Part shown: piece after piece, positions 23,446 through 48,596 of the stretch | Position numbering within the stretch: the first letter of the stretch is position 1 | How the letters are laid out: each line of letters starts with the position of its first letter | Assembly: GCA_964350165.1 (NCBI GenBank) | Contig: CAYGJA010000002.1 | Span: 119,822 to 183,821 of the forward strand | Source: an uncultured Candidatus Saccharibacteria bacterium | GTDB taxonomy: Bacteria > Patescibacteriota > Minisyncoccia > Phycocordibacterales > UBA1006 | Direction of reading: 5' to 3' | DNA length: 64,000 nt | Notes under the pieces: model-generated | What the model was told of the DNA's origin: nothing | What the model saw: the letters and a program-made list of their open reading frames with translations, nothing else | Databases searched by the model: none | Made by a program: the position numbers and the translations under genes

Positions 23446-23567
23446 GAGGGTCTCTGTTTTTTGTCTTTTTTCATCCACTAGACCAGGCGCAGTTTTTTGG
23501 AAAAACGTTATAATGCAAGGGCACGCTTGACCGCAATCTTTTGTGATTGGAATTACTGGCGTGCACT

Positions 23568-25436
23568 ATGTATATGTTGTTGTGGTCAAGAAAAACGATA
23601 CGCATCGGAGCAGCTTTTATTCTGCTTGGTATGTTGGTGCGAAGTTTTATTTTTCCCGCTTCCACTAGTGCGGCCACGGCGGTATTTTTTCCCGAGACTT
23701 GTCTGGGGGGATGGCAGTATGTGGATCATGCAGCGGGCAAGCCAGATTTTAGTGAGCCTTTGTCCGACCAATATTCAGAAGCAACTGCAGCCGTGTTTTC
23801 TTCTGGAGGGTCAGCCCAAATTTTTTGTAGTAATTTTAAGGGAGAAATTCCTGAACATACTTTTCCCGAGGAGGCAGCTGTTCGTTTCAATTGGGATTTT
23901 CGTTATGACGAAGAGCCTTTGATTATCCTCGATCCTTTTGAGGCTGATCAGATGATTGTGGTGAAACCCACTGTTCAGGAAGAAGTTGAAACCGTGGTAA
24001 GCGAAGAATCAGAGGAAGAAATTTCTCCTGAGGCTAAAGGGGTTGCGACGGATGAAGAACCAAAAGAAGAAATAATTGAAGAATCTGCCACGCCAGAACC
24101 TGCCTTAAAGCCGAAGGCAGATGCAACCGAGGTTGAGGTTCTCCCTGAGTCAGGCCCGGTCATCGAGGATGGCTCTGATTCAGAAGAAGTAGTTTGGCAC
24201 CGGGTTGGCAACAAGATTGCCTCGTTTGTGCGGGATTTGATTACCGTACCAGTTGCTCGAGCCCAAGAAGAAACAGATCCAGTGCAAAATCCTGCCACTG
24301 ATGAGGCAGTAGTGATGGACCAAGAAGTCACCATCAGCAATGAACCAGCTTCAGACCCGGTAGTATCCCAAGAATCAGTTGTCGCCAATGATGAACCTAC
24401 CGCAGCCGAATCACCATCACCGGCTGAGACGGTGGATGTCGTCGAGGGGCCAGTCGAGATCGCGCCAGCATCAGAAGAACTAGCTCCAGAAGAAGCTCCT
24501 GCTGGTTCATCATCTAAAGAAGAAAAAGAAGAGGTAATTGTTGTTGACCAAGAATCAGAATTATCTATAGGGGAAGAAACTGACCAGATCGAACCGCTCG
24601 CAACCACCACTGAATCCCAAATTACCGCAGAAGAAAAAGAAAAAGAAAAAGAAAAAGAAAAAGAAGAAGAAGTCGCACCGGCCGAGGTAAAAGGAACTTT
24701 TGATGAGGAATCCCCAGAAGCAGTAATTGAAAGCATTAATTCTCTAGAAGACCTGGGCCAGATGATTATTGCTGCCGAAGAGCGTGCAGCCAGTCAGCCG
24801 GATTACTTCCTGGAGCTTACGTACAGTATCGCTGGTGCCGAGCCAATTGTATTTGGCCAAGCTAGTCTGGCAGATGCAGAGGGAAAATTAGTTCTCTTGC
24901 CCGAAGAGGTTGTAAACAATTGGGGCGAAATCAAGAATCTTCAGATTGGAATTCGGCCCATGTCCGTCTTTCTAGATATTCCAGCGGTATATCTAGAAAG
25001 TATGTCGCTCGAGGTTAGTTACACCGAACCAGTCGAACCAGCCGAAAACCAAAATGCACTTGGGCTGTCGGTCCGGAGCGTAGACAGGGACGTGACAACC
25101 GACCCGAGCGCAACCCACCGGTGCACACTAGATCCTTTTGCCACTAATGTTTCGGAGGTGGATTTTGCAACGGTTGTGCTTCGGCTGGAAAGAGAGGTCG
25201 GATTTGAGTATTCAGTTGAGGTGGGATCATTGCCAGACGGTATTGACGTTGCTTTTGTCAAGAATTCCGAATATTTTTATGCGCCAAAGAAAAAAGAAAC
25301 AGAGATTGAATTGAATATTCACAAGGATCGAGGCGCCAGTCAGGGAAGTTTTAGTATCCCAATTATTTTCACCAAACTAATTGACGAAGGAAAAGAGTCT
25401 GTCGCAATTTGTCAGATGAATGTAATGAACGAATAG
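23568..25436 (+). CDS. Secreted/anchored highly acidic (E-rich) low-complexity protein
   Basis: It has an N-terminal hydrophobic segment, then long E/P/A/S-rich stretches including an (EK)n run. The structured C-terminal region is about 200 aa. Confidence 0.45.
   Translation: MYMLLWSRKTIRIGAAFILLGMLVRSFIFPASTSAATAVFFPETCLGGWQYVDHAAGKPDFSEPLSDQYSEATAAVFSSGGSAQIFCSNFKGEIPEHTFPEEAAVRFNWDFRYDEEPLIILDPFEADQMIVVKPTVQEEVETVVSEESEEEISPEAKGVATDEEPKEEIIEESATPEPALKPKADATEVEVLPESGPVIEDGSDSEEVVWHRVGNKIASFVRDLITVPVARAQEETDPVQNPATDEAVVMDQEVTISNEPASDPVVSQESVVANDEPTAAESPSPAETVDVVEGPVEIAPASEELAPEEAPAGSSSKEEKEEVIVVDQESELSIGEETDQIEPLATTTESQITAEEKEKEKEKEKEEEVAPAEVKGTFDEESPEAVIESINSLEDLGQMIIAAEERAASQPDYFLELTYSIAGAEPIVFGQASLADAEGKLVLLPEEVVNNWGEIKNLQIGIRPMSVFLDIPAVYLESMSLEVSYTEPVEPAENQNALGLSVRSVDRDVTTDPSATHRCTLDPFATNVSEVDFATVVLRLEREVGFEYSVEVGSLPDGIDVAFVKNSEYFYAPKKKETEIELNIHKDRGASQGSFSIPIIFTKLIDEGKESVAICQMNVMNE
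24631..24670 (+). repeat. Simple sequence repeat (GAAAAA)n encoding an (EK)n tract
   Basis: The repeat gaaaaagaaaaagaaaaagaaaaagaaaaaga was read directly, inside the CDS. Confidence 0.8.
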
Positions 25437-25438
25437 CT

Positions 25439-28400
25439 ATGGCAAGAAATACTCTGTCATTCAGGAAAAGTTTGGTGAACTTTTTTTTGCTTGTGACAAT
25501 GTTTGCTCCTTTGGTTTTTTCGGGCTGGCCGCAATCGGGGCTGTTTAATCCCAGTGTTCAGGAAGTACGAGCTGCTGTGGGAGACATCGGTCATTGGGAA
25601 GACTCGATTGGGGGGCAAATTCCAGGGCTGACTTTTGCCGGCTTTGACTTCGACAATGAAATAAGAAATGACGGTATCTATACCAAGCCCAATGATTCGA
25701 CCATTGAGCTCGATGAGGCTGGCGATTATCTGATTATTGCCACAATTCGGGGGACTGATAATTCGAATGGCCGCTATAATCCGCAGGGCCGAGTAGCGCT
25801 GACGTCGGGTTCTGGTACGTTGTATACGTCATACAATACTGGTTATTCTCGTGACAACAGTGAAAACGAGTCCTGGGTCCGAGCCGTAGGGGTGGTAATT
25901 GGCGCTTCAGCCAATGCGCAGATACAGATTCAACGACGCCGCGATACTGACGCACCGACTTCGGGTAGCGTACCAGGTCAATCAGACGTCCAGGTGGTGC
26001 GAATTAATCCCACTAATTACGGTGTCTATGCTATTGGCGGAACGACTGATACATATGCGGGAAGTGCACCATACGGAGCCAACACACCTGATACCGTTGA
26101 TATTACGGCCGTGACGGCCGAGTCTAGCACTTCGGCCATCGAAGGCAACACCACCACCGAGACCGTGACGGTAAAAGGTGATAATAAGCGCTATCTGGTT
26201 GCTTGGTCGGTGTCGGGGGATACGGGGGGAGTTCGTACCCAGCGTATCGGGCATTTGGAATATGATGGCGTCGATGATTTGGCAACCCGGTCATATTGCT
26301 ACCAGAGGCAGGCTTCGGATGAGTACTGTGGCTTGGGGGCAATTGATATTATTGAGACTTCTACCGCAGACAGGGCTATTCAGGTTGAAGTATATATCGG
26401 AGATGGAGCTGCATCTGACCAGGGTGGGGCAGAAAATACGGGGTCTTGGGTTGCCGACGGTAATGGACAGCTGGTGATTCTGGAGCTTCCGGATTCATTA
26501 GAAGTGTTTCGCGCTCATGATTCGATTGGTTTGCAGGATATTACTAGCGCAGTGACATTGAATGCTGCTCGGGATGTTGATTTTAACGATGCCAATAGCT
26601 TTACCAAGGCTAGCAATACAGCGATTGACGTCACCTACCCAGCCGATATTTTTGCTTTTGGGAATGTCTGGACGGCTCGAAACAATGTTGGCTCTGGATT
26701 ACGCCTAACTGCTTATGGTCGAATTACTATTAATGGTGTGGAACAATCAGTGGGTGAACACGGGAATTATACTCGTGGAGACCAATCCACTTCCGGAACC
26801 TTTGGAGGAGTATTTTCTCCCGCTGGAATATTCACTATCGGAACAGCTGGTCATGATATTGGGATCAATATGGATCCTTTGGCTGGCACAGAAGGTGGAG
26901 GGGCCGACCGTACTCAGGCCGGCACGGTGGGATTTTTTGCTCTCAATCTAGACACTTTGTTGCCTCCGGCTTTTGAGCAATCTGCTTATCGATTTTTTGC
27001 CAATACTAACTCTGCCGATGTTGGGTCAGCTCTGGCTGTTCAGGATTCGGCTGCTACGCTGGCAACTACTGGTGATGCTTTTCGGTTGCGAACTTTGATC
27101 CATGTATCAGATGCTCCACTGCGACCGAGTTTGCAGGATTTCAAGCTCCAATTTGCGGAAAAAAGTGGAACCTGTGATACCAGCTTTACCGGAGAAAGCT
27201 ATGCTGACGTCACTGGCGCGACGGTAATTGCTTTTAATAATAACGCCACTCCAGCTGATGGTGACAACTTGACTGCCAATGCCAGTGACCCAACTCATGG
27301 CGGGCATACGATTGTTAACCAAGACTACGAAGAAGCGAATAACTTTACCAATAGTGTGGCTGCCATCCCGGCTGGTCAAGACGGTAAATGGGATTTTTCG
27401 TTGATTGATAATGGGGCTACAGCCAATACTTCATATTGTTTTCGCATTGTGGAAGCAGATAACACTCAACTAAGTACTTACACCGTAATACCAGAAGTAA
27501 TTACGGCTTCAGCTGGGGGCTCTCCTGATATTGCTCAGATTCACTATCGCTGGCGTGGTGATACTGAGGGCGAAACAGGAACTACTTGGGCTTTTGCCGA
27601 AGATGCAACCTCAACCAGTCTAGTCAAGCAAACGCCCACAAGACTTCGTTTTGCAATCAGTAACGAAGGGACAGCTGATACGGGTAATATTGAATACCAG
27701 CTAGAGGTGTCGGGTGCGAATCCGAGTTCGTGCTCGGTGGCTAGTTATCAGGCCGTCACTGCTGGGGGAGAGACTCATTGGGACATGGCGACTAGCACTA
27801 ATTTTACGAATTCTGATCCTACCACAAATAATTCAGGGATTACTGACGAAAACACTACGTTCGTAGCGGGTGATATTATGGATACTTCAGATACAACGGG
27901 AGTTATTGATCTGACCTCGACTCAGCACACTCAGGTAGAGTTTTCGATAGAGGCAAACACCAGTGCCACAAACGGTGGAACGTATTGTTTTCGTTTGACT
28001 AACGCCGGATCAACTACTAATTTTTCTTATGATCAATATGCTGCGGCGACTCTGGAAACATTGCCTGACGTAACAGTGTCTACTGAGGGTACGCAGGTGG
28101 CAACGGTCGATGCCGGTTCCTCTGGTAATAATATGGGTGCCAAGTTTGTAATTACTGATACTGCTGGGAATTCTCCAAATGTTACAACGCTGGTCTTTGC
28201 TGAAAACGGAACCATTGATAGTGTTAATGATATTTCTTCCATTTTTGTGCGAGCCGAAAGTGATACCAGTGATCCATACGATTGTGCTAGTGAATCTTAT
28301 GATGGGACCGAATATTCCTATGGGCCGGCCGATATTGATGGTTTTAACAGTGCTGGAGGAACGGCTTCTTTTACTGATTCTTTTTCTATTAGTCCAACTT

Positions 28401-31400
28401 CGGCTATGTGTGTGTATGTTCGTCTGGGGATTGGAGTGGGTGCTTCGCCAGGCGAAACCATTGAACTTCAAATTACCGATCCATCGACCGATGTTGTTGT
28501 TTCTTCTGGAACCGTAGGCCCCAGTACTCCTGTTTTGTTGCCGGGAACCACGGTGGTTTCAGGGCTTCCTGATCTAGATCAAATTCGTTATCGATGGTTG
28601 TACGACAATGAAGACGAAAATGAAGCAGACGTTATTGCGGCCGAAAATGCAACCAATACGGCGGTTATCAAAAACGATATTCAAAGGTTGCGTTTTATGG
28701 TGTCCAATGAGGGTTCGGGCACCTCTGGTAGCACCACTTATCGGCTCGAAGTATCCGAAGCCAACCCCTCGTCTTGTTCGGCTGGTACCTACGAACGAGT
28801 GTCTACTGATGCTGATTGGGATTTGGGAAATTCTTTAGAATTTAGTGATGGCGCGGCCACGGCGGACTCCGGCAGTTATCTTACCAATGAAAACACCACC
28901 TTTGTGGCGGGTGAACAAAAAGATACCAGTGATACTACTAGCGGTATCACGCTTACATCCACCGAATTCACTGAAATAGAATATGCCATCAAGCCAACTA
29001 CAGCTGCTACTGATGGTGGAAATTATTGTTTTCGCCTCACTAATGCTGGTACGGCTCTAGATACCTATACCCAGTATGCTATTGCTGCGGTCAAATCTAC
29101 AGCTACTAATATATATCGTTCGGTGGGTACAAATCAATCAAATTTAAACGTTGCTGGTGCAACAATTACAATTGCCACGAGTACGGTTACTTTTTCAACT
29201 GACCCAACTAGTGGCTCCGGAAATATTGGGGTGGGAGATGTTATTCAGTATCAAGATGGAGGTGCGGGTCAGTATTATTTGGCTTTTATTACAGGCAGAA
29301 CTTCTGCAACCGAATATACTGTGACAAATTATTCCGGTGGACTTCCGCATAAGGTTGCTGCCGGTGAGACGGCTCTGGTATATCGTGTCTACGACCACGC
29401 TGCGGGATGGGAGGCAAACACTCTCAGCCAAGAAAATGCAAACATTGATGCAACTGTTGATGATTACGTTATTTTGCCTTCAACTAATCTGACTGATTAC
29501 AACTATGTAATGAAGGTTCCACTCTATAAAGATGGGGTAGATAATGAATACCTCAGTCTTGCTGGTTGGACGACTAGTGCCAGCAATTATATTCACCTCT
29601 TTACTCCGATTGCCTCTAGTGAGGTCGGCACAAGTCAGCGGCACACGGGAATAGCGGGGACGGGGTATGTATATGCGAGAACAGGGGCGCCGGGCGCTGG
29701 CACCAGCAGTCACATTAACGTAACTGTGCCTTTTGTTCGTATCGAAGGAATAGAATTGGACGGTTCTTTTTTCCGAGGAGGAGAAAATGTGAACGGTATC
29801 TTGTTTAATGCAGCTGGGTCTTCTGATTTGAGACTCACCAATTCTATTCTTCACGATATATCGGGAGACGATTGCTGTGACGAGGACGCCAGCCTCGTGA
29901 ACGCAGTTGCGGTGCAAAGCTCGGCTGATACCGTAAGAATTGCCAATAATATTATTTACGACATCTCGAGCTCTTCTGCTCATGCCAGTAGTGATGTTGC
30001 AGGAATCAAATTGAGTAATAGTGCCGGGAATGTTTACGTCTACAGCAACACTATTTTTGACATCACTCAGACGAGTGTTTCTGGTGGTGATGCGCGTGGA
30101 ATATATGAGACATCTATTTCTTCTTATCTTCTCAAGAATAATTATGTGGGTGGAACAGTTGCCTCTAATGGTTCTTCTGTGGAATCAGACTATGTTGGTG
30201 ATTTTGCTTCAGGTTCAACCAATAATGTCTCTTCGGATGCGACAGCGGGAGACGACGTTGATCAGGTAAACGAAATAACGGGACAGAATAGTTATGCAAA
30301 TTACTTTAGAGATGTGGACCCAGGGGAGGAGGACTTGCGATTAAAATCTAATTCGAATACTTTATGGGGATCGTACGGCGCAGACTTGGATGTTGACGGG
30401 AATATTGCCATTACCACCGACATCGAAGGAGAGGCTCGCGATGGTACTAATCCGGATATTGGCGCAGACGAGGCCGTGAACGTGGCTGATTTGCAACAAT
30501 TGCACTATCGTTGGGGCACGGATGATGGTCGGGAAAGCTGGTATAGCTCGAGCTGGCAACATCGAGTTAGTGTCAATATTCCTGGTACAAATCTCGTTGC
30601 TCCAATGGCCGATTTCCCCATCTACGTCGATCTCTCCGATCTCCCCACCGCTTTCTTCGAAACCGTCCAAACAGACGGAGACGATATTCGAATCACCGAC
30701 GGAGACGGAGTAACCGAACTTCCTTTTGAACTTGTCTCTATAAATACCGGCACCCAAACAGGAGAACTTCACTTCAAAGCAGATTTGTTCACTGGAACAG
30801 TTAACAATTTCTACATCTACTACGGCAACGCATCTGCTACTGGCTACGCCACCACCGACACGTATGGTGCGGAGAATGTGTGGACCAATGGATATTCGGG
30901 AGTATGGCACTTAGGTGAAACAGTAACAGACGAACAAACTTCCGGAGTTCACTACGACTCCACTTCCAATAGTCTGGACGGCTCCCAAAACAACAACGCC
31001 ACCCTAGCTGCCGGAAAACTAGGACAAGCCCAAAATTTCGATGGTACCAGTGACGCTATCACCATCGCAGACAACGATGCCCTCACTCCTGTTGGTGACG
31101 CCACTTATTCATACTGGGCATACCTAGAAACCCTCAATACCAGCAACGACGGTGTTTTCTTATACAAAATGCACTCGGTTGCTCCTTGGTACAGCTACAT
31201 TATTGAATTCGATGGTAATGGTACAGATCACCAAATAGCCAACTATCTAGACACTAACGAATCCAATAATCAAGCCGGCTCCACGGCTACCACCTCGGCT
31301 GGTGCCTGGTTCTCTGTGAATGCCGTCCGCGAGAGTGACACCTGGAAGTATTACCTCAACTCAGCCGCCACTGGTTGGACCAGTGCTCTGACCACCGACA

Positions 31401-33577: not shown

Positions 33578-33580
33578 GCT

Positions 33581-33607
33581 TATTCACAGTAATTGAATAG
33601 TTTTTTT
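33581..33607 (+). terminator. Rho-independent terminator after the giant gene (TATTCA-cagtaat-TGAATA, T7)
   Basis: It was read directly and lies immediately after the TAA stop at 33575-33577. Confidence 0.65.
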
Positions 33608-36270: not shown

Positions 36271-36274
36271 GAAT

Positions 36275-39275: not shown

Positions 39276-39349
39276 AGCTTTGTGTCAAGTGGAAAAAAAG
39301 ATTGATGTGCTAGGATACGGATGTTTATTCAGCCATAATGATTTTTGAT

Positions 39350-41234: not shown

Positions 41235-43973
41235 ATGAACAGATTTCTGGTGGTAAAATTTTTTGTACTAATACTGCTTTTTGTACCCTTGCTTGGACAG
41301 GCGCAGATATCTAATGGTACCTATGAACTGGAGTCCTCGGTTGTGTCTGCTGGTGGAGGCACCTTAAGTGTTGGAAATTATCAAATCGATGTTGTCACAG
41401 GAGAAACCTTCATTGGGCGAGTCACAAATGCTGTCTACGATATTTTTGTTGGTTTTCTAAAGCCAACAACCGCTTGTTCAGACGGTGTAGATAATGATGG
41501 TGATGGTTTTGTTGATTTGCTTGATACTGGTTGTGCTGATGCTGATGATGATAATGAGTACGTTTCTTCTGGGGGTAGCGGGGGTAACACTACTCCAACC
41601 GAGCCCACCGGAACAAACAACCCTACCGATCCCGAAACGTTTGCATGTAATCTTGTTGCAAACCCTTCCGTTATCCAAGAGGGAGAGCAGAGTCAATTGA
41701 TATGGTCTGGTTCTGGGTTGGCAAGTTCGGGGCACACCATTACTGGATTGGGGGTTGTTCCATCCGCTGGAGTAGCCAGTGTTTCTCCTACCACTACCAC
41801 GGACTATATCGGAAATTTTATTGATACAAGGGGAGACACGCTTACCTGTAGTTATCGTATAGAGGTGCAAGACTCCAGTGCTGGTTTTGTTGACTTCTCT
41901 CCGTCTACCTATCAATTAATCGAAAACATAAGAGAGCACCTTGTTGTTTTGGAGCGGCAGGGAGGTTCTTCTGGGGCAGTTTCGGTGTTAGTCGACATAG
42001 CGGGTTCTCCCATTGCTCAAGCTGGAGCTGATTTTATTTTTATCCCAACCGTTGTCACCTGGCAGGCAGGAGAGCAAGGTACAAAAACCGTTCAGTTTTC
42101 GGTGATTGATGACAATTTGATTGAGGGGCCAGAGTTTGTCGAACTTCAATTAAAAAATATTGCCGGTGCTCTGTATGGAGCCAATCGATCAGCAACCATT
42201 CAGATAGTAGACGATGAGGTTGTTCTGGCTGATCCAGTTCTTACTCTGGTGACTACCGTTGATAATCGTGGTGTCGGAACTCGAGCTGCACATACTTTTG
42301 GTTTGACATTAAACGGCTCCACGGTTACAAGCGGTCAATCTGTATCTGTTCCCAAAAATACCGAGCTTGTGATCGAAGGGCAAAATGAAACTGACTATCG
42401 GGTGTCATCTGTTACTGGTTCTTCTTTTTGTCCGGAAAGATTAGGGGAAACCTTTGAGCTTCCTGAAGGGGTAAATGTTGTCTGTCGTATTAATTATGAA
42501 TATACAGGTAATCCAAATCCAGAAGAAACTGACCCTGATCCAGAAACCGATCCCGACAACGGCCCTGACCCTGATCCAAAAATAGAAGTAGACATTGATT
42601 TGGGTAGCGGTTCAGTTAGTCAGATTACTCTGGTTGAAGCTACTTTGCGTATCAGTGAAGCAACTGGTCAAGCGGTTATTGCCCTAGAGCGTTCAGGCTC
42701 ATTGGCTTTGCCGGTTGAGGCAAACTTGATGCTCATACCAGGTACCGCACTCTTGGGGGCTGACTATGGGCAGACTGACTCTGTGGTCAGGTGGGGGGAG
42801 AAAGAGGGGGGCGTAAAAACCTTGGTTATTCCTATTTCTGTTGATGATATTCCGGAAGTTGACGAGTATTTTACGGTGGCATTGTCATCATTGACTTCTG
42901 GTATTTTTGGGCGAAATACTCGAACGCGGGTGACCATCTCTGATGATACCCCCGAGGAGGTCGCCAGCGATCAGGCTACTGGCGCAGTTTTGACTCAACT
43001 GGAAACGTTTGTCGAGAGCCCAACAATAAAGAGCGCCATTGTTACTACTGCCGCAACAAGTCTTTCTGTCGGGGTGACTGCTTTTGTGACCAGCGTGGCT
43101 GTTAACCCGGGCATGTTTGCGGACCTATTGTCTTTGCCGTTTCGGCTGTATTCTTTGCTGTTGTCGTTTTTTGGTATCCGAAAAAAAAATCGACCATGGG
43201 GAGTTGTGTTTGATAGTTTTACCAAACAGCCTCTTGATCCAGCTCATGTGATTATTCGAAATGAAGCTGGTCAAGAAATAGCGACTTCGATTACTGACTT
43301 GGATGGTAGATATGGTTTTTTGGTAAATGCTGGTAAGTATCGAATAGAGGCGGGGAAGACTCATTATACTTTTCCTTCTGTTCAGCTGGCTGGAAAAACC
43401 AGCGACGAATTGTATGACCGCTTGTATTTTGGTGAAGAAATTACGGTTGCCACTGACGGCGAGGTTTTGCTTCACAATATTCCGATGGACCCAGAGCAAG
43501 AAGATTGGAACCAGAAAGCAAAGATTGCCATGGGGGTAACTCGTTTTTACAATAAACATAGCGTAGCCATTGCTCTGGTGACCGACGTACTTTTTTACGT
43601 CGGTGTGACAATGGCAACGGTTGCAACAATCATTGCTCCCGCTCGATATAACATCATCATACTCATCGCTTATGGTGTTCTAATGATTTTGCGTGTCATT
43701 GGATTGAAAATTAAAAGTCATGGTCGAGTAATCGAGGCCAAGACAGGTGATCCTATTCCTGGTGCCGTCTTAAAATTTTTCTCACAACGAACTGGAATTC
43801 AGGTTGCCAAGCGTACGACTGACAGCATGGGGCGCTACTACGCTCTTATAAATAAAGGGGTTTATCGGGTAGACATAGAGACAACCTTACCTGATGGTTC
43901 GGTGCAAAAAATTGGCAGTTTTCAGAATTTAAAAACAAAAAAAGGAATCATTCGAAAGTTCTTTAAATTATAA
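41235..43973 (+). CDS. Large (912 aa) surface protein with a TSP3-like Ca-binding Cys motif, Calx-beta-like domains, C-terminal TM segments and carboxypeptidase-regulatory-like domains
   Basis: It has a signal peptide. It has CSDGVDNDGDGFVDLLDTGCADADDDNE and a Calx-beta-like ...FVELQLKNIAGALYGANRSATIQIVDDE. It has TM helices near residues 780-830 and DLDGRYGF / DSMGRYYA motifs. Confidence 0.5.
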   Translation: MNRFLVVKFFVLILLFVPLLGQAQISNGTYELESSVVSAGGGTLSVGNYQIDVVTGETFIGRVTNAVYDIFVGFLKPTTACSDGVDNDGDGFVDLLDTGCADADDDNEYVSSGGSGGNTTPTEPTGTNNPTDPETFACNLVANPSVIQEGEQSQLIWSGSGLASSGHTITGLGVVPSAGVASVSPTTTTDYIGNFIDTRGDTLTCSYRIEVQDSSAGFVDFSPSTYQLIENIREHLVVLERQGGSSGAVSVLVDIAGSPIAQAGADFIFIPTVVTWQAGEQGTKTVQFSVIDDNLIEGPEFVELQLKNIAGALYGANRSATIQIVDDEVVLADPVLTLVTTVDNRGVGTRAAHTFGLTLNGSTVTSGQSVSVPKNTELVIEGQNETDYRVSSVTGSSFCPERLGETFELPEGVNVVCRINYEYTGNPNPEETDPDPETDPDNGPDPDPKIEVDIDLGSGSVSQITLVEATLRISEATGQAVIALERSGSLALPVEANLMLIPGTALLGADYGQTDSVVRWGEKEGGVKTLVIPISVDDIPEVDEYFTVALSSLTSGIFGRNTRTRVTISDDTPEEVASDQATGAVLTQLETFVESPTIKSAIVTTAATSLSVGVTAFVTSVAVNPGMFADLLSLPFRLYSLLLSFFGIRKKNRPWGVVFDSFTKQPLDPAHVIIRNEAGQEIATSITDLDGRYGFLVNAGKYRIEAGKTHYTFPSVQLAGKTSDELYDRLYFGEEITVATDGEVLLHNIPMDPEQEDWNQKAKIAMGVTRFYNKHSVAIALVTDVLFYVGVTMATVATIIAPARYNIIILIAYGVLMILRVIGLKIKSHGRVIEAKTGDPIPGAVLKFFSQRTGIQVAKRTTDSMGRYYALINKGVYRVDIETTLPDGSVQKIGSFQNLKTKKGIIRKFFKL

Positions 43974-44036
43974 GAAAAAAGTCTAAAATTAACACTGACT
44001 GGTGTTCTGTTTGCAAAGAATGGTATTATAATTTTT

Positions 44037-47000
44037 ATGAAGAAAATACTTTTTTTACCCAAGAAATTTGGATTTATTACTGGCGGATTCCTTTTGTTGG
44101 CCCTCTTTTTAGCTGTTCCTGGAGGTTTTTTGCAGGCTCAAGGTACTGCAATAGTTGACTCGCTTACGCTGGTTAATGCTCAGAATGCAGCAGATGTTTT
44201 GACTGTGGACCCCGGAGAAGTAATACTTCCCAGCGAGACGGGGGGTAGGAATTATACCTTTCGTGCCAATACGGCGGGAACTATTGGTAGTGTCCGTTTT
44301 GTATTGAGTGGTCCTCTTAATACTATATTCGTAGCAAACACAAAGCCTTATATGTTGGCGGGAATAGACTCCAGTGGTTATTACAATGGGCTTAGTTTTC
44401 CTGACGGAACCTATACCTTAACAGCAACGCCCTATACTGGCCCTGGTGCTACTGGTTCTTCGGGGGTATCTCTTTCGAGAACGTTTACGGTTGGTAATAG
44501 TGCTCCTGCTTCAACAGGAGGAACTCAAACCACTATTGATTTCTCAGTAAATGATTTGGTTGAGCTCATTCAGGTAACACCCCTATACGACCAACCGGGT
44601 GGTGCTTTTTTATACAACGGGCAGAGCGATCTAACTGCGCAGATTGTAAATACTTCTGTTGTTCGCAACGGTGTTCCTTGGTGGAACATCCAGATGTGGG
44701 ACGGAAAAATTGGCTGGGTGCCGCAAACGTACTTAACTTTAGCTGCTGTTAATACTGACACCACCCCACCAGCCACCCCAACCCTCAACACTTCCGTCTC
44801 GGGAACAACCGTTAACCTAAATTGGAATGCGGTTACCGACCCAAGTTCAGTGGCCTATGAAGTCCAAAAAGACGGAGTAAATCTAATCACCAACTTAACC
44901 ACTACTTCATACGTTGCCACCAATCTTTCTGCTGGAAACCACGTCTTTCGAATTCGAGCCAAAGATGGCTCCAATAACTATTCTGGTTGGAGTAGTAAGA
45001 CTGTGACGATTAGTGCGCCGGGGCCGGTCACAACTCCAACCCCAACTCCAACCGATCCAACACCAGTTCCTACCGATCCAACACCAACAGATTCTGTGCC
45101 ACCAGTTGTTACCGGACACCAAGCTCCTGGTCTGATTCAAGCAGAAGATTTTTCAGCAGCTTCGGACGCTACCCCTGGAAATAGTGGCTTGGCTTTTGGG
45201 GGAATAACTAATAGTGCTAATCCTAATGTTGACATTGAGGCAACAACCGATACTGCTGGAGGTCACAATGTGGGTTGGACAAATGTTGGGGAAACTCTCA
45301 GTTACGAAATTACGGTTGCCGAAACTGGAACATACACCGTTGAGTATCGTCTCTCAAGTATTTTTGCTCAAAAAAACAGGTTCCAGGTTCTGCTTGATGG
45401 GGCCATCGTTCATACCGTGGCCGTGCCAAGCACCGGGGGGTGGCAATCTTGGGCAACCGTGTCCAAGACGCTTAACCTCACCGCTGGGCAACATACACTT
45501 CGTTTGAATATTATTGAAAGTGGCTGGAATATTAACTGGATAAAATTCACGAAACAAACAGGTACCACTGCTCCTGACCCAACCCCACTTCCAACAGCTC
45601 CTTCTACTCAGTTTTCTGTAGGCGATTGTGTGATTACTACCGCAACCTCTCTTAATATTAGAAACACTCCTAATGGCACGGTTCTTGGCCAGTTGCTACC
45701 AGGGGTCATTGCCTCGGTGGTTCAGAATAGTCAGAATGGTACCACTGTTGGTGGATATACTTGGTGGAATATTGAAACCAGTTCACTCACTGGCTGGGCT
45801 GCTGAAGAATACCTGGTTGATAGCGCTTGCGTTCCTGTTCCAGTCTCTGACACCACCCCACCAGCTACCCCAACCCTTAACACTTCCGTCTCGGGAACAA
45901 CCGTTAACCTAAATTGGAATGCGGTTACCGACCCAAGTTCAGTGGCCTATGAAGTCCAAAAAGACGGAGTAAATCTAATCACCAACTTAACCACTACTTC
46001 ATACGTTGCCACCAATCTTTCTGCTGGAAACCACGTCTTTCGAATTCGAGCCAAAGATGGCTCCAATAACTATTCTGGTTGGAGTAGTAAGACTGTGACG
46101 ATTAGTGCGCCGGGGCCGATAGTAAACACAGGGCCGATTGTGAAAGGTGGTATGGTAACAACGCAAGGTTCTGGGTCTATGCAGCTTTATGGAGACGCTG
46201 GTGCTAATCCTATCGACACCATCGTTTCTGGAATTAGTGGAATTGTTACCCATGATTGTTTGGAAAATGGAGCAACCTATTGCCGAGTCGTTTTCGATAA
46301 TGGCCAAGATGGCTGGCTAGACGATTCTTATTTGGTGCACACCGGATCATCTCCGGTTCCAACAGGACCAACGACGGTTGCTTCACAATTTTCTAGTGGG
46401 CAATGTGTGCAGGTGACGGCAAGCTCGCTTAATGTCCGAAGTGCCCCTGGAACAAGCGCGTCCTTTTTGGGTAGCCAGACTCTGAACAGTAAAGGAACTG
46501 TTTTGGCAAATTCAAACACAAACCCTTCTTCGGCCAATGGATTTATCTGGAGACAGATTGATTTCTTGCAAGGAGTCGATGGTTATGTGGCTGAGCAGTA
46601 CCTAGACCCTGCAACTAATTGTTCTATGCCAGCACCTGCCCCGGTTCCTGTTGTTGATGTCACTGCGCCACCGGTTCCTTCGTTCTCAAGCTCATCTCCA
46701 AATACTAACGCTATAACACTCTCTTGGAGTTCTGTAGAAAGTGGCGCTGTGTATGAGATACGTCGGGGCACCACCATTGTGGCTTCTTCTTTGACCAATC
46801 TCTCACATACAGTATCTGGTTTGGCTTCAGGAACTTCTTATACTTTCCAGATTAGAGCAAAAGATGCTGCTGGAAATACTTCTGCGTGGTCCGCTTCCTT
46901 GACTGTAGATACCCTATCTGTTGTTACGAATCCAGCACCGCCTACTTCGAATGGGGGAACGGTTGGGGTTCCGGTGACACAATGTTCTGACGGTGTGGAC

Positions 47001-48596
47001 AACGATTCTGATGGGCTGGTTGATTATCCAAACGATCCTGGTTGTGCATCGCCAAACGATGACAACGAGGATAATGTTGCGGTCCCGCCTACGGGAAATG
47101 TCATCAACGTCAGTAGCGGTGGGAGTATCGCCAACGCTATCGCCAGTGTCACATCGACTCCGGTTACCATTTATCTTGCTCCTGGCACCTACAATGTTGG
47201 CTCAGGTATCACACTTCCAGATGGAGTGAGTCTAGTCGGTTCGGGTGTTGATAAGACGACTATCACCAGCAACATAACGTATCAATCTGACATCTACACC
47301 ATTCAGCAGGCTGGTGCAGGAGCTCAGGGAGTGTTGATTACCACCGGAAGCAACCAAGTAATCCGAGACCTAACACTTGATGGTAATAATAAAAATATTT
47401 CAATAGCGATTCGTACAGCGCCGGGCAGTCCTGCTCCAACCAATGTTTCTAATGTAGAGATGTACAATCTACACATTAAAGAATTCTATACTTCGGGTGT
47501 TGTCTTGACCCAGATAAGTAATAGTAGTTTGCACGACACTACTTTCTACGACAACTCTTGGACTTCAAACAACAATGATGGCTACACAACTGCTTCGATT
47601 GTTTGGCACAGTACAACAGATGTTGATGTTTACAACGTCGACATTCTCGAACGAGAACAGCGCAGTGGCCACATCGGAGGAGGTAGCGGTATGGACGCTA
47701 TTCCTTTGCCTCCTACATACGGCAACACTCTGACAAGAACTCGCTTCTTTAATTCACGTGTGTTTGTCGACCCATTCTCTCCTTGGGGTGGTGGTGTAAA
47801 CAGTAATATTGCGCACGAATGGTGGGGAACCGAATTGATAGATTCTGAGATATTCAACAATACCTACAACAACAACCTGAGCTTGGTCTTTGAACACGCG
47901 GGTCCTCAGGGCGTGCCGTCGGTGAAGGTCTACAACAACAATTTCTTCCTTAGTGACGTCAAGTCTTGGGGCGTAGAGGTAACGAGACATGACGTAGAGC
48001 TCTACAATAATTACTTCGACACTGGTCTGGTTGGTACTCCTGTGTTTGCCAACTGGGATGGAGGTTTCCGGCCCGAAAATACCAATATTCATGGCAACCT
48101 TATCAGAATAAGACAGGGCTATACCAACTGGATAAGTTCAGTCATAACCTTTGCTGGTGGATTCAAAAACATGAACTTTACCAACAATACAGTGCATGTT
48201 GATACGAGTGCTGAGGTTACAATGCTTGCTTTGTATGGCCAGGGTACAATTGTTGACTCTCACTTTGATAACAATCTGTTCTATCGAAGTATTCCAAAAA
48301 GCGGTGGTGGAGTTGATCCCTTCTTGCACCTGGAACCCTACGGTTGTTCTACGCCGGCTACGTTTGGAATTCAGAACGTGACTCTGCGTAATAACTTGTT
48401 TGACGGCATAAACAAAGACGCGTTCCGTACCACCTGTAATTCGACCAAGACCGGAGATTTGATGCAATCAGGCAACATCAACGCCTCGGCTCAATTGAAT
48501 CTATCTGGATCTCGCTATGGTTCCTACTACACCCCGCTATCTACGAGTCCAGCTGTTGGAGGTGGTCTTGATGGATCAAACATCGGAGCTTTCTAG
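44037..48596 (+). CDS. Giant (1519 aa) surface protein with SH3b x3-4, FN3 x2 (near-identical), a CBM6-like domain, a TSP3-like Cys motif and a C-terminal right-handed beta-helix
   Basis: It has a signal/TM (GGFLLLALFLAVPGG). It has SH3b-like WWNIQMWDGKIGWVPQTYL, TWWNIETSSLTGWAAEEYL and FIWRQIDFLQGVDGYVAEQYL. FN3 VNLNWNAVTDPSSVAYEVQKDG occurs twice. It has a CBM-like HTLRLNIIESGWNINWIKF and a beta-helix repeat region NNN/YNN. Confidence 0.55.
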   Translation: MKKILFLPKKFGFITGGFLLLALFLAVPGGFLQAQGTAIVDSLTLVNAQNAADVLTVDPGEVILPSETGGRNYTFRANTAGTIGSVRFVLSGPLNTIFVANTKPYMLAGIDSSGYYNGLSFPDGTYTLTATPYTGPGATGSSGVSLSRTFTVGNSAPASTGGTQTTIDFSVNDLVELIQVTPLYDQPGGAFLYNGQSDLTAQIVNTSVVRNGVPWWNIQMWDGKIGWVPQTYLTLAAVNTDTTPPATPTLNTSVSGTTVNLNWNAVTDPSSVAYEVQKDGVNLITNLTTTSYVATNLSAGNHVFRIRAKDGSNNYSGWSSKTVTISAPGPVTTPTPTPTDPTPVPTDPTPTDSVPPVVTGHQAPGLIQAEDFSAASDATPGNSGLAFGGITNSANPNVDIEATTDTAGGHNVGWTNVGETLSYEITVAETGTYTVEYRLSSIFAQKNRFQVLLDGAIVHTVAVPSTGGWQSWATVSKTLNLTAGQHTLRLNIIESGWNINWIKFTKQTGTTAPDPTPLPTAPSTQFSVGDCVITTATSLNIRNTPNGTVLGQLLPGVIASVVQNSQNGTTVGGYTWWNIETSSLTGWAAEEYLVDSACVPVPVSDTTPPATPTLNTSVSGTTVNLNWNAVTDPSSVAYEVQKDGVNLITNLTTTSYVATNLSAGNHVFRIRAKDGSNNYSGWSSKTVTISAPGPIVNTGPIVKGGMVTTQGSGSMQLYGDAGANPIDTIVSGISGIVTHDCLENGATYCRVVFDNGQDGWLDDSYLVHTGSSPVPTGPTTVASQFSSGQCVQVTASSLNVRSAPGTSASFLGSQTLNSKGTVLANSNTNPSSANGFIWRQIDFLQGVDGYVAEQYLDPATNCSMPAPAPVPVVDVTAPPVPSFSSSSPNTNAITLSWSSVESGAVYEIRRGTTIVASSLTNLSHTVSGLASGTSYTFQIRAKDAAGNTSAWSASLTVDTLSVVTNPAPPTSNGGTVGVPVTQCSDGVDNDSDGLVDYPNDPGCASPNDDNEDNVAVPPTGNVINVSSGGSIANAIASVTSTPVTIYLAPGTYNVGSGITLPDGVSLVGSGVDKTTITSNITYQSDIYTIQQAGAGAQGVLITTGSNQVIRDLTLDGNNKNISIAIRTAPGSPAPTNVSNVEMYNLHIKEFYTSGVVLTQISNSSLHDTTFYDNSWTSNNNDGYTTASIVWHSTTDVDVYNVDILEREQRSGHIGGGSGMDAIPLPPTYGNTLTRTRFFNSRVFVDPFSPWGGGVNSNIAHEWWGTELIDSEIFNNTYNNNLSLVFEHAGPQGVPSVKVYNNNFFLSDVKSWGVEVTRHDVELYNNYFDTGLVGTPVFANWDGGFRPENTNIHGNLIRIRQGYTNWISSVITFAGGFKNMNFTNNTVHVDTSAEVTMLALYGQGTIVDSHFDNNLFYRSIPKSGGGVDPFLHLEPYGCSTPATFGIQNVTLRNNLFDGINKDAFRTTCNSTKTGDLMQSGNINASAQLNLSGSRYGSYYTPLSTSPAVGGGLDGSNIGAF
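44755..45026 (+). repeat. 272-nt intragenic direct repeat copy 1 (FN3-encoding), near-identical to 45847-46118
   Basis: I saw only 2 mismatches over about 272 nt on direct comparison. Confidence 0.85.
45847..46118 (+). repeat. 272-nt intragenic direct repeat copy 2
   Basis: See copy 1. The copies are 1092 nt apart. Confidence 0.85.

What the first reader, a model, noticed from the sequence alone, without database searches (positions are those of the whole stretch)
23547..48596. About 25 kb cell-surface mega-locus encoding two giant multidomain proteins plus anchoring/scaffold proteins, a candidate host-attachment apparatus
The locus contains contiguous genes for several surface proteins:
- an acidic secreted protein;
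- a 2712-aa protein with lectin-like LamG and DUF2341 modules and a beta-helix;
- a paralogous C-terminal-domain protein;
- a signal/TM-anchored protein;
- dockerin and cohesin-like proteins;
- a 912-aa Calx-beta adhesin;
- a 1519-aa SH3b/FN3/CBM/beta-helix protein.

All have signal peptides or anchors, and strong terminators follow the two giants. In small-genome CPR-like bacteria such giant proteins are prime candidates for episymbiotic host-cell attachment, and this particular domain combination is not a described system. Secreted nuclease and MsrA genes sit inside the locus.
Basis: partly seen in the sequence, partly recalled or inferred. Interest (0 to 1): 0.7.

Follow-up and report, generated by a model that had tools for sequence, protein, structure and literature searches.

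The report
Pam-type pilus operon with giant adhesin
The first 15.7 kb of this "mega-locus" is a seven-gene operon, conserved across many ultra-small CPR bacteria, that most likely builds a thin surface fibre: a 2,712-residue sticky tip, a shaft of small subunits, and a predicted plug-and-socket anchor in the cell membrane. The remaining 9 kb is unrelated surface-protein genes.

Summary
The genes, most of the domains and the N-terminal hydrophobic signals are real. The locus is not one 25-kb apparatus, and its core is no longer undescribed.

Window 23568-39275 is a tightly packed operon found in the same order in up to 80 Patescibacteria genomes: variable large protein, pilin(s), membrane-anchored chaperone, dockerin protein, then two cohesin-like membrane proteins. 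An acidic secreted protein lies upstream in about a quarter of them.

The shared C-terminal domain of the giant and of the 346-aa protein passes NCBIfam's curated "Pam pilus pilin" model. Pam pili were solved by cryo-EM in a 2026 preprint. The 340-aa protein models as two Ig-like domains plus a C-terminal membrane helix. Its best structural matches are enterococcal WxLIP and chaperone-usher chaperones.

A conserved donor-strand motif lies just before the C-terminal domain in pilins. It is absent from the giant. It recurs at the N-terminus of the dockerin protein, followed by poly-glycine.

From this I infer: the giant is an acceptor-only tip adhesin, the pilin forms the shaft, and the dockerin protein is a donor-only terminator that docks on the cohesin-like anchors.

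The nuclease, MsrA, the 912-aa and the 1519-aa genes are not conserved neighbours.

Verdict: a new variant of a just-described system.

The parts
23568..25436 (+). 622-aa acidic (pI 4.1) secreted protein; semi-conserved upstream accessory of the operon, function unknown
   Evidence: N-terminal hydrophobic segment. Its N- and C-terminal regions recur upstream of the large CTD protein in 18 of 80 related loci. No Pfam, NCBIfam or PDB sequence match. Only 2 nt separate it from the giant gene.
25439..33577 (+). 2712-aa giant protein; predicted acceptor-only tip adhesin. It comprises a signal peptide, a conserved ~500-aa head, three copies of a ~170-aa beta domain, a beta-helix-like stretch, 2x (DUF2341-like + LamG) and a Pam pilin C-terminal domain.
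   Evidence: The donor motif is absent upstream of its CTD (sequence THSVYGQASVAGGAQTISFSISD).
25439..26938 (+). Giant residues 1-500: signal peptide plus a head domain with no family match
   Evidence: Residues ~10-700, which include this head, are 53-70% identical to the N-termini of 1541-1962-aa proteins P0242-P0255. At least one of these, P0242 on locus L083, is encoded in a UGA=Gly (code 25) CPR genome and also precedes a small CTD protein and a chaperone homologue. No Pfam hit.
30536..32638 (+). Giant residues ~1700-2400: two tandem DUF2341-like + Laminin_G_3 (concanavalin-like lectin) modules
   Evidence: Pfam Laminin_G_3 at E 1e-13 and 2e-17; DUF2341 at 17.4 bits, below cutoff. 27-29% identity over ~700 aa to DUF2341/LamG proteins P0256, P0258 and P0260.
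33095..33574 (+). Giant residues 2553-2712: Pam pilin C-terminal (truncated Ig-like, strand-acceptor) domain
   Evidence: NCBIfam NF058581 at 64.8 bits, cutoff 55. 54% identical to the pilin's CTD. In 150 of the 150 best library representatives this domain sits at the extreme C-terminus of proteins 120-2748 aa long.
33576..33635 (+). Intergenic signals: weak AT-rich hairpin plus T-run, then a promoter-like site (TTGAGA-18-TATAAT, 33606-33635) ahead of the pilin gene
   Evidence: These are consensus matches only; function was not tested.
33686..34726 (+). 346-aa pilin (shaft subunit): signal peptide, N-terminal beta-sandwich domain, linker and Pam pilin C-terminal domain
   Evidence: NF058581 at 66.9-67.2 bits. 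AF2 model pLDDT 94.2, all-beta, two domains. More than 1000 homologues, with source names Kerfeld-, Nomurabacteria and Paceibacterota.
34205..34240 (+). Pilin residues 174-185, LNDDQVNITAEV: predicted donor (linker) strand
   Evidence: The motif I(I/L)xDDxVx(V/I)(T/S)A(T/E)V is conserved directly upstream of the CTD in pilins: PSSM score >20 in 83 of 84, strict core regex in 59 of 84. It is found in only 4 of 62 large or CTD-only proteins. No regular secondary structure is assigned to residues 175-188 in the monomer model.
34773..35795 (+). 340-aa membrane-anchored chaperone (PamC/D-like, WxLIP-like): signal peptide, two Ig-like domains and a C-terminal TM helix
   Evidence: AF2 pLDDT 91, helix at residues 300-339. 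Foldseek top hits are WxLIP 9i1y/9i25 (E 1e-10), followed by RbmA and a CEP192 domain and then, from rank 9, CU chaperones CsuC, CfaA, Caf1M and EcpB (E 1e-9 to 1e-7). 288 homologues.
35803..36270 (+). 155-aa dockerin protein: signal peptide, short strand DVIITAQV (35914-35937), Gly-rich linker and a C-terminal type I dockerin. Predicted donor-only terminator/adaptor.
   Evidence: Pfam Dockerin_1 at 32.1 bits. Family alignment A4. The N-terminal motif occurs in 58 of 68 family members against 26 of 2535 background ORFs, and 49 of the 58 are followed by poly-Gly. The window copy lacks the two central Ig-like domains of its ~300-aa homologues.
36275..37255 (+). 326-aa protein: signal peptide, cohesin-like domain, Ig-like domain and C-terminal TM helix. 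Predicted membrane anchor that receives the dockerin.
   Evidence: TM at 295-313. The family profile hits Ruminococcus cohesins 5aoz and 5m2o at E 2e-4 and 5e-4. Pfam Cohesin in 3 of 34 members. Present in 64 of 80 loci, directly after the dockerin gene.
37242..39275 (+). 677-aa protein: signal peptide, cohesin-like N-domain related to the 326-aa protein, Ig-like domains, TM segments and a charged C-terminal tail. Second predicted anchor.
   Evidence: Reciprocal phmmer hits with the 326-aa protein. The profile hits Ig-like domains of 2yn3 and 6m3a. TM-like segments. Present in 61 of 80 loci.
39338..39976 (+). 212-aa acidic membrane-anchored protein; not a conserved neighbour
   Evidence: no family match.
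39984..40472 (-). 162-aa staphylococcal-nuclease homologue with an N-terminal anchor; not part of the conserved operon
   Evidence: Pfam SNase E 6e-21. On the opposite strand, and absent from all 80 related loci.
40487..41182 (+). 231-aa MsrA with an N-terminal hydrophobic segment; not part of the conserved operon
   Evidence: Pfam PMSR E 3e-59. MsrA homologues occur only sporadically near related loci, 3 of 80 and always upstream.
41235..43973 (+). 912-aa surface protein (2x Calx-beta, CarboxypepD_reg, C-terminal TM region); independent of the operon except for a shared anchor module
   Evidence: Its residues 590-911 match the C-terminal part of the third anchor gene in L018 and L063 at 199-249 bits.
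44037..48596 (+). 1519-aa secreted glycan-binding protein (Y_Y_Y-like, CBM6/35, 2x SH3_3, fn3, pectate-lyase-like beta-helix); not a conserved neighbour
48640..48686 (+). Strong intrinsic terminator after the 1519-aa gene
   Evidence: -19.9 kcal/mol, z -6.4, followed by UUUUAUUU.

Best explanation
Window 23568-39275 is a Pam-type pilus operon: a chaperone-assisted, usher-less, donor-strand-exchange fibre of CPR/Patescibacteria. It belongs to a widespread variant that the Pam preprint does not describe.

Proposed mechanism:
1. All components are exported by Sec.
2. The 340-aa chaperone stays tethered in the membrane by its C-terminal helix and caps the open groove of the pilin C-terminal domains.
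3. The 2712-aa protein has the acceptor domain but no donor strand, so it can only start a fibre. It therefore sits at the distal tip and presents its lectin-like modules (LamG, DUF2341-like, beta-helix-like and a novel head) to a target surface, probably host-cell glycans.
4. The 346-aa pilin has both a donor linker strand and an acceptor domain, and polymerises head-to-tail beneath the tip. Its gene has its own promoter-like site.
5. The dockerin protein has only a donor-like strand on a poly-glycine tether, so it ends the chain.
6. Its C-terminal dockerin plugs into the cohesin-like domain of the two membrane-anchored proteins, fixing the fibre to the cell.

Shown here: family membership of the C-terminal domain, the fold of the chaperone, conservation of the operon, and the distribution of the motif. 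Inferred: polymerisation, the order of subunits, cohesin-dockerin anchoring and host binding.

The 3' 9 kb (212-aa protein, SNase, MsrA, 912-aa and 1519-aa proteins) is a separate set of exported proteins.
For: **Family membership**
- NCBIfam NF058581 'Pam pilus system pilin subunit' passes its curated cutoff of 55 bits for the giant (64.8 bits) and for the pilin (66.9 bits). It also hits all 65 aligned pilin homologues.
- The Pam preprint defines pilins as NTD + linker donor strand + truncated-Ig CTD. It describes PapD/FimC-like chaperones with a C-terminal TM helix, a tip subunit that lacks the linker, and a terminator with an N-terminal strand.

**Structure models**
- The pilin model (pLDDT 94) has two beta domains joined by a stretch with no assigned secondary structure.
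- The chaperone model (pLDDT 91) has two Ig-like domains plus a TM helix. It matches WxLIP and then CU chaperones CsuC, CfaA, Caf1M and EcpB.

**Operon conservation**
- The order L-P(1-3 copies)-C-D-p326-p693 recurs in 80 Patescibacteria loci. Counts out of 80: L 63, P 68, D 66, p326 64, p693 61. Most of the missing genes are explained by contig ends.
- Gene spacing in the window runs from -14 to 108 nt.

**Donor motif**
- The motif is conserved just upstream of the CTD in pilins (PSSM >20 in 83 of 84; strict regex in 59 of 84) and found in only 4 of 62 L-class proteins.
- It occurs in the first 75 residues of 58 of 68 dockerin proteins against 26 of 2535 other ORFs. In 49 of the 58 it is followed by poly-Gly.
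- The chaperone family has a similar 'GQVSVGAK' at the end of domain 1.

**Anchor**
- The dockerin passes the Pfam cutoff.
- The p326 family profile hits solved cohesins at E 2e-4.

**Tip diversity**
- L-class proteins range from 190 to 2390 aa in the loci. 33 of the 150 best library representatives are 1000 aa or longer and 10 are 2000 aa or longer. The CTD is always at the extreme C-terminus.
Against: - No filament has been seen for this variant, and no complex prediction could be run, so strand insertion, subunit order and cohesin-dockerin pairing are all inferred.
- The CTD scores are only ~10 bits above the cutoff, and PamT matches far below its own cutoff (21 bits against 240).
- The chaperone has no NCBIfam or Pfam hit, and its TM-scores to known chaperones are modest (0.4-0.56).
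- The pilin has no cysteines, whereas PamA and PamB have 2-3 cysteine pairs.
- No RbmA-like PamR could be shown, and no ATP-synthase, CorB or MFS neighbourhood is present.
- Cohesin similarity is weak.
- The window's dockerin protein is a truncated version (155 aa against ~300 aa).
Confidence: 0.68

Rival explanations
1. A WxL-cluster-like, non-filamentous surface display complex. As proposed for Firmicute WxL loci, the small and the large protein would each be held singly at the cell surface by the membrane-anchored WxLIP-like protein through one strand insertion, with no polymerisation.
For: - The best structural matches of the 340-aa protein are WxLIP alone and WxLIP bound to a long WxL protein (9i1y and 9i25, E 1e-10).
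- The gene logic matches the published WxL cluster: one small and one large protein sharing a C-terminal domain, plus a DUF916/DUF3324-type protein with a TM helix.
- UniRef names one homologue 'DUF916 domain-containing'.
Against: - The C-terminal domain has no Trp-x-Leu motifs; the pilin contains a single Trp in total.
- Pfam DUF916 and DUF3324 do not hit, even at E 10.
- The domain passes the Pam pilin model.
- A conserved donor-type motif present in pilins, absent from the large proteins and reused at the N-terminus of a third protein is hard to explain without chain formation.
- Pilin genes are often duplicated 2-3 times.
Confidence: 0.17
2. One reading: all 25 kb form one integrated host-attachment apparatus in which both giants, the Calx-beta protein, the nuclease and MsrA work together.
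For: - All genes but one are on the same strand and all products are exported.
- The 912-aa protein shares a C-terminal anchor module with the third anchor gene of two related loci.
- There is no strong terminator between 39275 and 48596.
Against: - In 80 related loci SNase, the 912-aa and the 1519-aa genes do not recur next to the operon. MsrA homologues appear in only 3 of 80 loci, always upstream of the operon rather than in the window's position.
- The SNase gene is on the opposite strand.
- The 1519-aa protein has no pilin C-terminal domain or dockerin that would connect it to the fibre.
Confidence: 0.07
3. A cellulosome-like polysaccharide-binding or -degrading complex assembled on cohesin scaffolds.
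For: - Dockerin and cohesin-like domains lie in adjacent genes.
- LamG, CBM6/35 and pectate-lyase-like domains occur nearby.
Against: - Only one protein carries a dockerin, and it has no catalytic domain.
- No glycoside hydrolase is attached to any dockerin.
- The dockerin gene is always embedded between the chaperone and the anchor genes of the pilin operon.
Confidence: 0.05

Closest known systems
Pam pili of Ca. Mycosynbacter amalyticus (Troman et al., bioRxiv 10.64898/2026.03.03.709456; NCBIfam NF058581/NF058579)
   Same: - Restricted to CPR.
- The pilin C-terminal domain passes the curated Pam model.
- The pilin has two domains joined by a conserved linker.
- The chaperone is PapD-like with a C-terminal TM helix.
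- There is no usher.
- It has an acceptor-only tip subunit and a donor-only terminator in principle.
   Different: - The tip here is a 2712-aa multidomain lectin-like protein, not a single-domain PamT.
- There is one pilin and one chaperone, instead of PamA/B/E and PamC/D.
- The predicted terminator is a dockerin protein plus two cohesin-like TM anchors, instead of an RbmA-like PamR. The preprint never mentions dockerin, cohesin or adhesin.
- The pilin has no cysteines.
- There is no ATP-synthase or CorB neighbourhood.
- The source names on homologues are Kerfeld-, Magasanik-, Nomura-, Kaiser- and Gracilibacteria and Paceibacterota, rather than the Saccharimonadia and Microgenomatia emphasised in the preprint.
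WxL clusters of Firmicutes (small WxL + large WxL + WxLIP = DUF916-DUF3324-TM; Hassan et al. 2023, PMC10599100; PDB 9i1y, 9i25)
   Same: - The cluster logic is the same: small and large proteins share a C-terminal domain, and the large one carries N-terminal binding domains.
- The partner protein has two Ig-like domains plus a C-terminal TM helix, and is the best structural match.
- A strand of the partner is predicted to insert into the shared domain.
   Different: - No WxL motifs.
- No Pfam DUF916, DUF3324 or WxL hits.
- WxL proteins are thought to be displayed singly on peptidoglycan, not polymerised.
- No dockerin/cohesin genes are described in WxL clusters.
Chaperone-usher pili (archaic Csu, CFA/I, Caf1, Pap/Fim)
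   Same: - Ig-like subunits with an incomplete fold, completed by a donated strand.
- A two-domain chaperone.
- A tip adhesin that accepts but does not donate (PapG/FimH logic).
- A terminator that donates but cannot accept (PapH logic).
   Different: - No outer-membrane usher, because the host is a monoderm.
- The chaperone is membrane-tethered.
- The donor strand is an internal linker, not an N-terminal extension, except in the dockerin protein and in rare ~190-aa mini-pilins such as those in L041.
Cellulosome cohesin-dockerin anchoring
   Same: A type I dockerin with two Ca-binding repeats, and cohesin-like modules on membrane- or surface-anchored scaffolds in adjacent genes.
   Different: The dockerin is carried by a pilus-operon protein, not by an enzyme. 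The cohesin similarity is remote. The predicted use is to anchor a fibre, not an enzyme complex.

Membership tests
Pam pilus system (CPR) | [quoted passage not shown] | tested here: met
   Giant 64.8 bits and pilin 66.9-67.2 bits, cutoff 55. 65 of 65 aligned homologues hit.
Pam pilus system (CPR) | Pilin built as an N-terminal beta-sandwich, a conserved linker (donor) strand and a C-terminal domain | tested here: met
   The AF2 model (pLDDT 94.2) has strands at 32-174, no assigned secondary structure at 175-188, and strands at 189-344. Linker residues D176, D177, V179 and V185 are invariant or nearly so. No superposition on PamA/PamB coordinates was possible.
Pam pilus system (CPR) | PapD/FimC-like chaperone that keeps a C-terminal transmembrane helix | tested here: met
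   The AF2 model (pLDDT 91) has two beta-sandwich domains plus a helix at 300-339. Foldseek hits WxLIP, CsuC, CfaA, Caf1M and EcpB at E 1e-10 to 1e-7. There is no sequence-model hit.
Pam pilus system (CPR) | Tip subunit with an acceptor domain but no linker strand (PamT-like) | tested here: met
   The giant lacks the donor motif upstream of its CTD, as do 58 of 62 L-class proteins. It is not a PamT orthologue: NF058579, which hit only the 360-aa pilin ORF, scored 21 bits against a cutoff of 240, and the giant matched only NF058581.
Pam pilus system (CPR) | RbmA-like PamR terminator: N-terminal strand, two FnIII domains and a C-terminal TM helix in one protein | tested here: inconclusive
   No single protein combines these features. 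The donor-like strand is on the dockerin protein, while the TM helices are on the cohesin-like p326 and p693 proteins.
Pam pilus system (CPR) | Assembly into a filament by donor-strand exchange | not testable with these tools
   This needs multimer prediction or cryo-EM. Only the motif distribution supports it.
Pam pilus system (CPR) | Conserved neighbourhood of ATP synthase, CorB and MFS genes | tested here: not met
   None of the larger flanking ORFs scanned in the 64-kb window has such a domain.
WxL cluster (Firmicutes) | [quoted passage not shown] | tested here: not met
   The pilin has one Trp in total, and the CTD ends ...YSTTLTYTATANY. Apparent WxL motifs in relatives P0242-P0255 are artefacts of UGA read as Trp in code-25 genomes.
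WxL cluster (Firmicutes) | WxLIP = DUF916 + DUF3324 + TM helix | tested here: inconclusive
   The best structural match is WxLIP 9i1y/9i25, but Pfam gives 0 families at E<=10.
WxL cluster (Firmicutes) | Cluster of one small and one large protein sharing the C-terminal domain, next to the interacting protein | tested here: met
Chaperone-usher pili | Outer-membrane usher | tested here: not met
   No usher-like ORF is present in the operon or in the 80 related loci. All operon proteins are accounted for.
Sortase-dependent Gram-positive pili | LPXTG sorting signal on the pilins | tested here: not met
   No LPXTG-like motif lies in the last 60 residues of any of the 12 proteins.
Cellulosome | Type I dockerin and matching cohesin | tested here: inconclusive
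   Dockerin is met at 32.1 bits, cutoff 22.9. Cohesin is only remote: profile against PDB cohesins at E 2e-4, and Pfam Cohesin in 3 of 34 members.
Cellulosome | Dockerins borne by carbohydrate-active enzymes | tested here: not met
   The only dockerin protein has no catalytic domain.

The most novel reading that the evidence does not exclude
This operon represents a previously unrecognised, very widespread class of CPR surface fibre, with several linked features.
- A donor-strand-exchange pilus would be fixed to the cell by a cohesin-dockerin plug: a donor-only dockerin terminator docking on cohesin-like membrane anchors.
- The fibre would be tipped by hypervariable adhesins of up to ~2,700 residues that determine host or substrate specificity.
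- The system would be homologous both to Pam pili and to Firmicute WxL clusters. That would imply that WxL clusters are also chaperone-assisted strand-exchange assemblies, and that this monoderm machinery predates the split between CPR and Firmicutes.
Probability: 0.35. Interest if true: 0.78.

Novelty: new variant of a known kind. Interest (0 to 1): 0.6.

Why it matters
How uncultured CPR bacteria find and hold their hosts is a central open question, and until 2026 only type IV pili were implicated.

This locus shows that the newly described Pam principle extends well beyond the lineages where it was reported. The principle is usher-less, chaperone-assisted strand exchange. Relatives of the chaperone were found in at least 153 stretches from species-representative genomes, and the tip domain defines 438 protein clusters at 50% identity.

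The operon gives a concrete, testable parts list. An acceptor-only giant adhesin is the likely specificity determinant. A single shaft pilin follows. A cohesin-dockerin anchor, not proposed before for any pilus in the papers searched, completes it.

The hypervariable tip proteins could serve as markers for host range in metagenomes. The structural link to enterococcal and Listeria WxL virulence clusters suggests a shared assembly mechanism worth testing in tractable Firmicutes.

Full report
**1. What is in the sequence**

Twelve ORFs fill 23547-48596. Eleven are on the + strand, with spacings from -14 to 108 nt. The staphylococcal-nuclease gene is on the - strand.

- two Laminin_G_3 domains in the giant;
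- a type I dockerin in the 155/170-aa protein;
- SNase and MsrA;
- two Calx-beta plus CarboxypepD_reg domains in the 912-aa protein;
- CBM6/35, two SH3_3, fn3 and a pectate-lyase-like beta-helix in the 1519-aa protein.

DUF2341 is below its cutoff at 17.4 bits. The giant's beta-helix appears only through homologues.

All twelve products have an N-terminal hydrophobic segment, and several also have C-terminal TM helices. This rests on a hydropathy heuristic.

A strong terminator follows the 1519-aa gene (-19.9 kcal/mol, z -6.4). The hairpin after the 2712-aa gene is no better than shuffled sequence (-4.3 kcal/mol, z -0.28). It is followed by an 11/12 promoter-like site in front of the next gene.

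Two independent Logan assemblies are 100% identical to window 31874-44816 and 32597-36144, so that part is not an assembly chimera.

**2. The key identification**

The giant and the next protein share a C-terminal domain: 54% identity over 163 residues, E 2e-26. NCBIfam recognises this domain in both as NF058581, 'Pam pilus system pilin subunit' (64.8 and 66.9 bits, cutoff 55). The same model hits all 65 aligned homologues of the small protein.

The name led to a 2026 preprint, bioRxiv 10.64898/2026.03.03.709456. Cryo-EM of filaments from the CPR bacterium Ca. Mycosynbacter amalyticus showed the following:
- The linker of one subunit completes the C-terminal domain of its neighbour (donor-strand exchange).
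- The operon encodes PapD/FimC-like chaperones that retain a C-terminal TM helix (PamC and PamD).
- It also encodes a tip subunit without a linker (PamT) and a membrane-anchored terminator with an N-terminal strand (PamR).

**3. Tests of that reading**

*Chaperone.* The 340-aa 'signal/TM-anchored protein' has 288 homologues. Modelled with 58 of them, it reaches pLDDT 91 and shows two beta-sandwich domains followed by a helix at residues 300-339.

Foldseek against the PDB gives two groups of relevant matches:
- WxLIP of Enterococcus faecium, alone and bound to a long WxL protein (9i1y and 9i25, E 1e-10);
- from rank 9, after RbmA and a CEP192 domain, chaperone-usher chaperones CsuC, CfaA, Caf1M and EcpB (E 1e-9 to 1e-7).

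This is the expected chaperone fold and topology. No sequence model recognises the protein.

*Pilin.* The 346-aa protein has more than 1000 homologues, with source names such as Kerfeldbacteria, Nomurabacteria and Paceibacterota. Its model reaches pLDDT 94.2. It has two all-beta domains (strands 32-174 and 189-344) joined by a stretch with no assigned secondary structure.

Fold searches returned only generic Ig-like proteins. No Pam structure appeared in the PDB copy. The pilin fold is therefore compatible with Pam but is not discriminating.

**4. Conservation and the limits of the unit**

A scan of species-representative genomes with the chaperone alignment found 153 relatives. I analysed the 80 best loci, all MAGs. 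Most carry Patescibacteria-type names, although some records are labelled otherwise (for example Gammaproteobacteria or Bacillota).

Profile and phmmer searches of all ORFs in these loci give one dominant gene order:
- a protein of variable length that ends in the Pam C-terminal domain but lacks the pilin N-domain ('L', present in 63 of 80 loci);
- one to three pilins ('P', 68 of 80);
- the chaperone;
- a ~300-aa protein ending in a dockerin ('D', 66 of 80);
- a ~300-aa homologue of the window's 326-aa protein (64 of 80);
- a ~580-aa homologue of the 693-aa ORF (61 of 80).

Most absences coincide with contig ends. A relative of the acidic 622-aa protein lies upstream in 18 of 80 loci.

SNase, the 212-aa, the 912-aa and the 1519-aa genes are not recurrent neighbours, and MsrA homologues occur only sporadically (3 of 80 loci, always upstream). 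The one link is that residues 590-911 of the 912-aa protein match the C-terminal part of the third anchor gene in two loci.

The functional unit is therefore 23568-39275, not 23547-48596.

**5. Who donates and who accepts**

I lined up the 30 residues before the C-terminal domain. Every pilin shows a conserved I(I/L)xDDxVx(V/I)(T/S)A(T/E)V. In the window this is LNDDQVNITAEV, residues 174-185. The L-class proteins, including the giant (…THSVYGQASVAGG|QTISFSISD), show unrelated sequence at that position.

A PSSM built from the motif scores above 20 in 83 of 84 pilins and in 1 of 68 L-class proteins.

The 7-residue core [VIL]x[VILF][STEG]AxV is distributed as follows:
- just upstream of the C-terminal domain in 59 of 84 pilins and 4 of 62 L proteins;
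- within the first 75 residues of 58 of 68 dockerin proteins, directly after the signal peptide, and followed by a poly-glycine run in 49 of the 58;
- within the first 75 residues of only 26 of 2535 other ORFs in the same loci.

The window's dockerin protein reads …VDSGDVIITAQVGVINPGGGG…. The chaperone family has a related 'GQVSVGAK' in a low-confidence loop at the end of its first domain. That is the position of the strand donated by chaperone-usher chaperones; this last point comes from my own knowledge of PapD-type chaperones.

This three-way pattern is the logic of a polar strand-exchange fibre: L is acceptor only, P is both donor and acceptor, and D is donor only. L must be distal and D must terminate the chain.

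**6. The anchor**

The D family ends in a canonical two-repeat dockerin (Pfam 32.1 bits).

The two following genes encode proteins with related N-terminal domains (reciprocal phmmer hits). A profile of the 326-aa family hits solved Ruminococcus flavefaciens cohesins at E 2e-4 to 5e-4, and Pfam Cohesin hits 3 of 34 members. Both proteins carry TM helices.

I infer that the dockerin of the terminator docks on these cohesin-like membrane proteins. They would then play the role assigned to the TM helix of PamR. This step is not shown.

The Pam preprint contains no mention of dockerin, cohesin, WxL or adhesin. Full-text searches found no paper that connects cohesin-dockerin pairs with CPR pili, or WxL clusters with donor-strand exchange.

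**7. The giant**

Its 2712 residues are a mosaic:
- Residues ~10-500 are a head with no family match. Residues ~10-700, which include it, are 53-70% identical to the N-termini of 1541-1962-aa proteins.
- At least one of those proteins, P0242 on L083, is encoded with UGA=Gly and sits before a small C-terminal-domain protein and a chaperone homologue.
- Three copies of a ~170-aa beta domain lie at about 512-687, 1048-1213 and 2401-2552. In other L proteins this domain usually precedes the C-terminal domain directly.
- Residues 1221-1609 are a beta-helix-like stretch.
- Residues 1700-2400 are two DUF2341-like plus LamG modules.
- Residues 2553-2712 are the Pam C-terminal domain.

L-class proteins in the 80 loci range from 190 to 2390 aa. 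In an exhaustive search of 1.84 billion representatives, the giant's C-terminal domain finds 438 clusters. Among the best 150 the domain is always at the extreme C-terminus, 33 proteins are 1000 aa or longer, 10 are 2000 aa or longer, and the longest is 2748 aa.

Giant tips are thus a recurrent feature, and the window's copy is near the upper end. The operon core is conserved while the tip is hypervariable. That is what one expects of a specificity-determining adhesin, though binding itself is inferred from the lectin-like domains only.

**8. Relation to WxL clusters**

[quoted passage not shown] AlphaFold predicts that a WxLIP hairpin inserts into the WxL domain (PMC10599100).

The gene logic and the best structural match of the chaperone are the same here. 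However, the C-terminal domain has no WxL motifs, and Pfam DUF916 and DUF3324 do not hit. My first impression of WxL motifs in relatives was an artefact of UGA translated as Trp.

I therefore treat 'works like a WxL cluster' as plausible, 'is a WxL cluster' as not met, and common ancestry as an open possibility.

**9. Verdict**

- It is wrong about the extent of the unit and about the system being undescribed.
- The best-supported reading (confidence about 0.68) is a Pam-type strand-exchange pilus operon with a giant acceptor-only tip adhesin.
- The cohesin-dockerin anchoring, about 0.5 on its own, is the genuinely new and testable element.
- The main rival (about 0.17) is a non-polymerising WxL-like display complex.
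- Novelty: a new variant of a known kind.

Noticed in passing
window 498-2279 and 4346-7138: A 593-aa type IV pilin-like protein (N-terminal methylation motif plus CarboxypepD_reg) and a 930-aa TrwB/VirD4-like coupling protein lie upstream. The genome therefore also encodes T4P- and T4SS-type surface machinery, separate from the Pam-type operon.
   Followed up: no
window 54000-58000: GC drops to 0.37, against 0.42-0.48 elsewhere. The two large ORFs there, 54714-56366(-) and 56801-58213(-), have no Pfam match. This may be a foreign island.
   Followed up: no
L083:10001-18150 (JGI 3300025126 Ga0210025_1000338): This is a UGA=Gly (code 25) CPR contig with 74 in-frame UGA codons in an 1840-aa gene. 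That gene's first ~700 residues are 58% identical to the window giant's head. It is followed by a 241-aa protein with a weak Pam C-terminal-domain hit and a 543-aa chaperone homologue. The head domain is thus shared between genomes that use different genetic codes. Database translations of these proteins carry spurious tryptophans.
   Followed up: partly
window 41235-43973 (residues 590-911); L018:8572-10794; L063:7271-8887: The C-terminal ~310 residues of the 912-aa Calx-beta protein (CarboxypepD_reg, TM region and tail) match the C-terminal part of the cohesin-like third anchor gene in two related loci at 199-249 bits. This suggests a shuffled membrane-anchor module.
   Followed up: partly
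window 35803-36270 versus alignment A4: The window's dockerin protein (155 aa) lacks the two central Ig-like domains found in its ~300-350-aa homologues. It keeps only the signal peptide, the donor-like strand, the Gly-rich linker and the dockerin. Some homologues also have a Cys-rich insert (GEQCDGSNLGG…CTFNTS) after the strand.
   Followed up: partly
L041:8504-9079 and L041:9318-9899: Two ~190-aa proteins consist only of a signal peptide, the donor motif (VTQDVNISATV and VDQNVSITATV) and the C-terminal domain. These mini-pilins have an N-terminal donor strand, as in chaperone-usher pilins.
   Followed up: no
window 39984-40472(-) and 40487-41182: The SNase and MsrA genes are divergently arranged, and both products carry N-terminal hydrophobic anchors. 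This points to an extracytoplasmic nuclease and an extracytoplasmic methionine-sulfoxide reductase.
   Followed up: no
window 20402-21913: A 503-aa protein matches all three domains of the GH3 family (acyl-acid amido synthetase, 'auxin-responsive GH3') directly upstream of MetRS.
   Followed up: no
window 34773-35795 (residues 130-150); alignment A1: The chaperone family consensus 'GQVSVGAK' resembles the pilin donor core. It lies in the only low-pLDDT loop of the model (68-71), at the end of domain 1, so it is a candidate for the strand that caps the pilin groove.
   Followed up: partly
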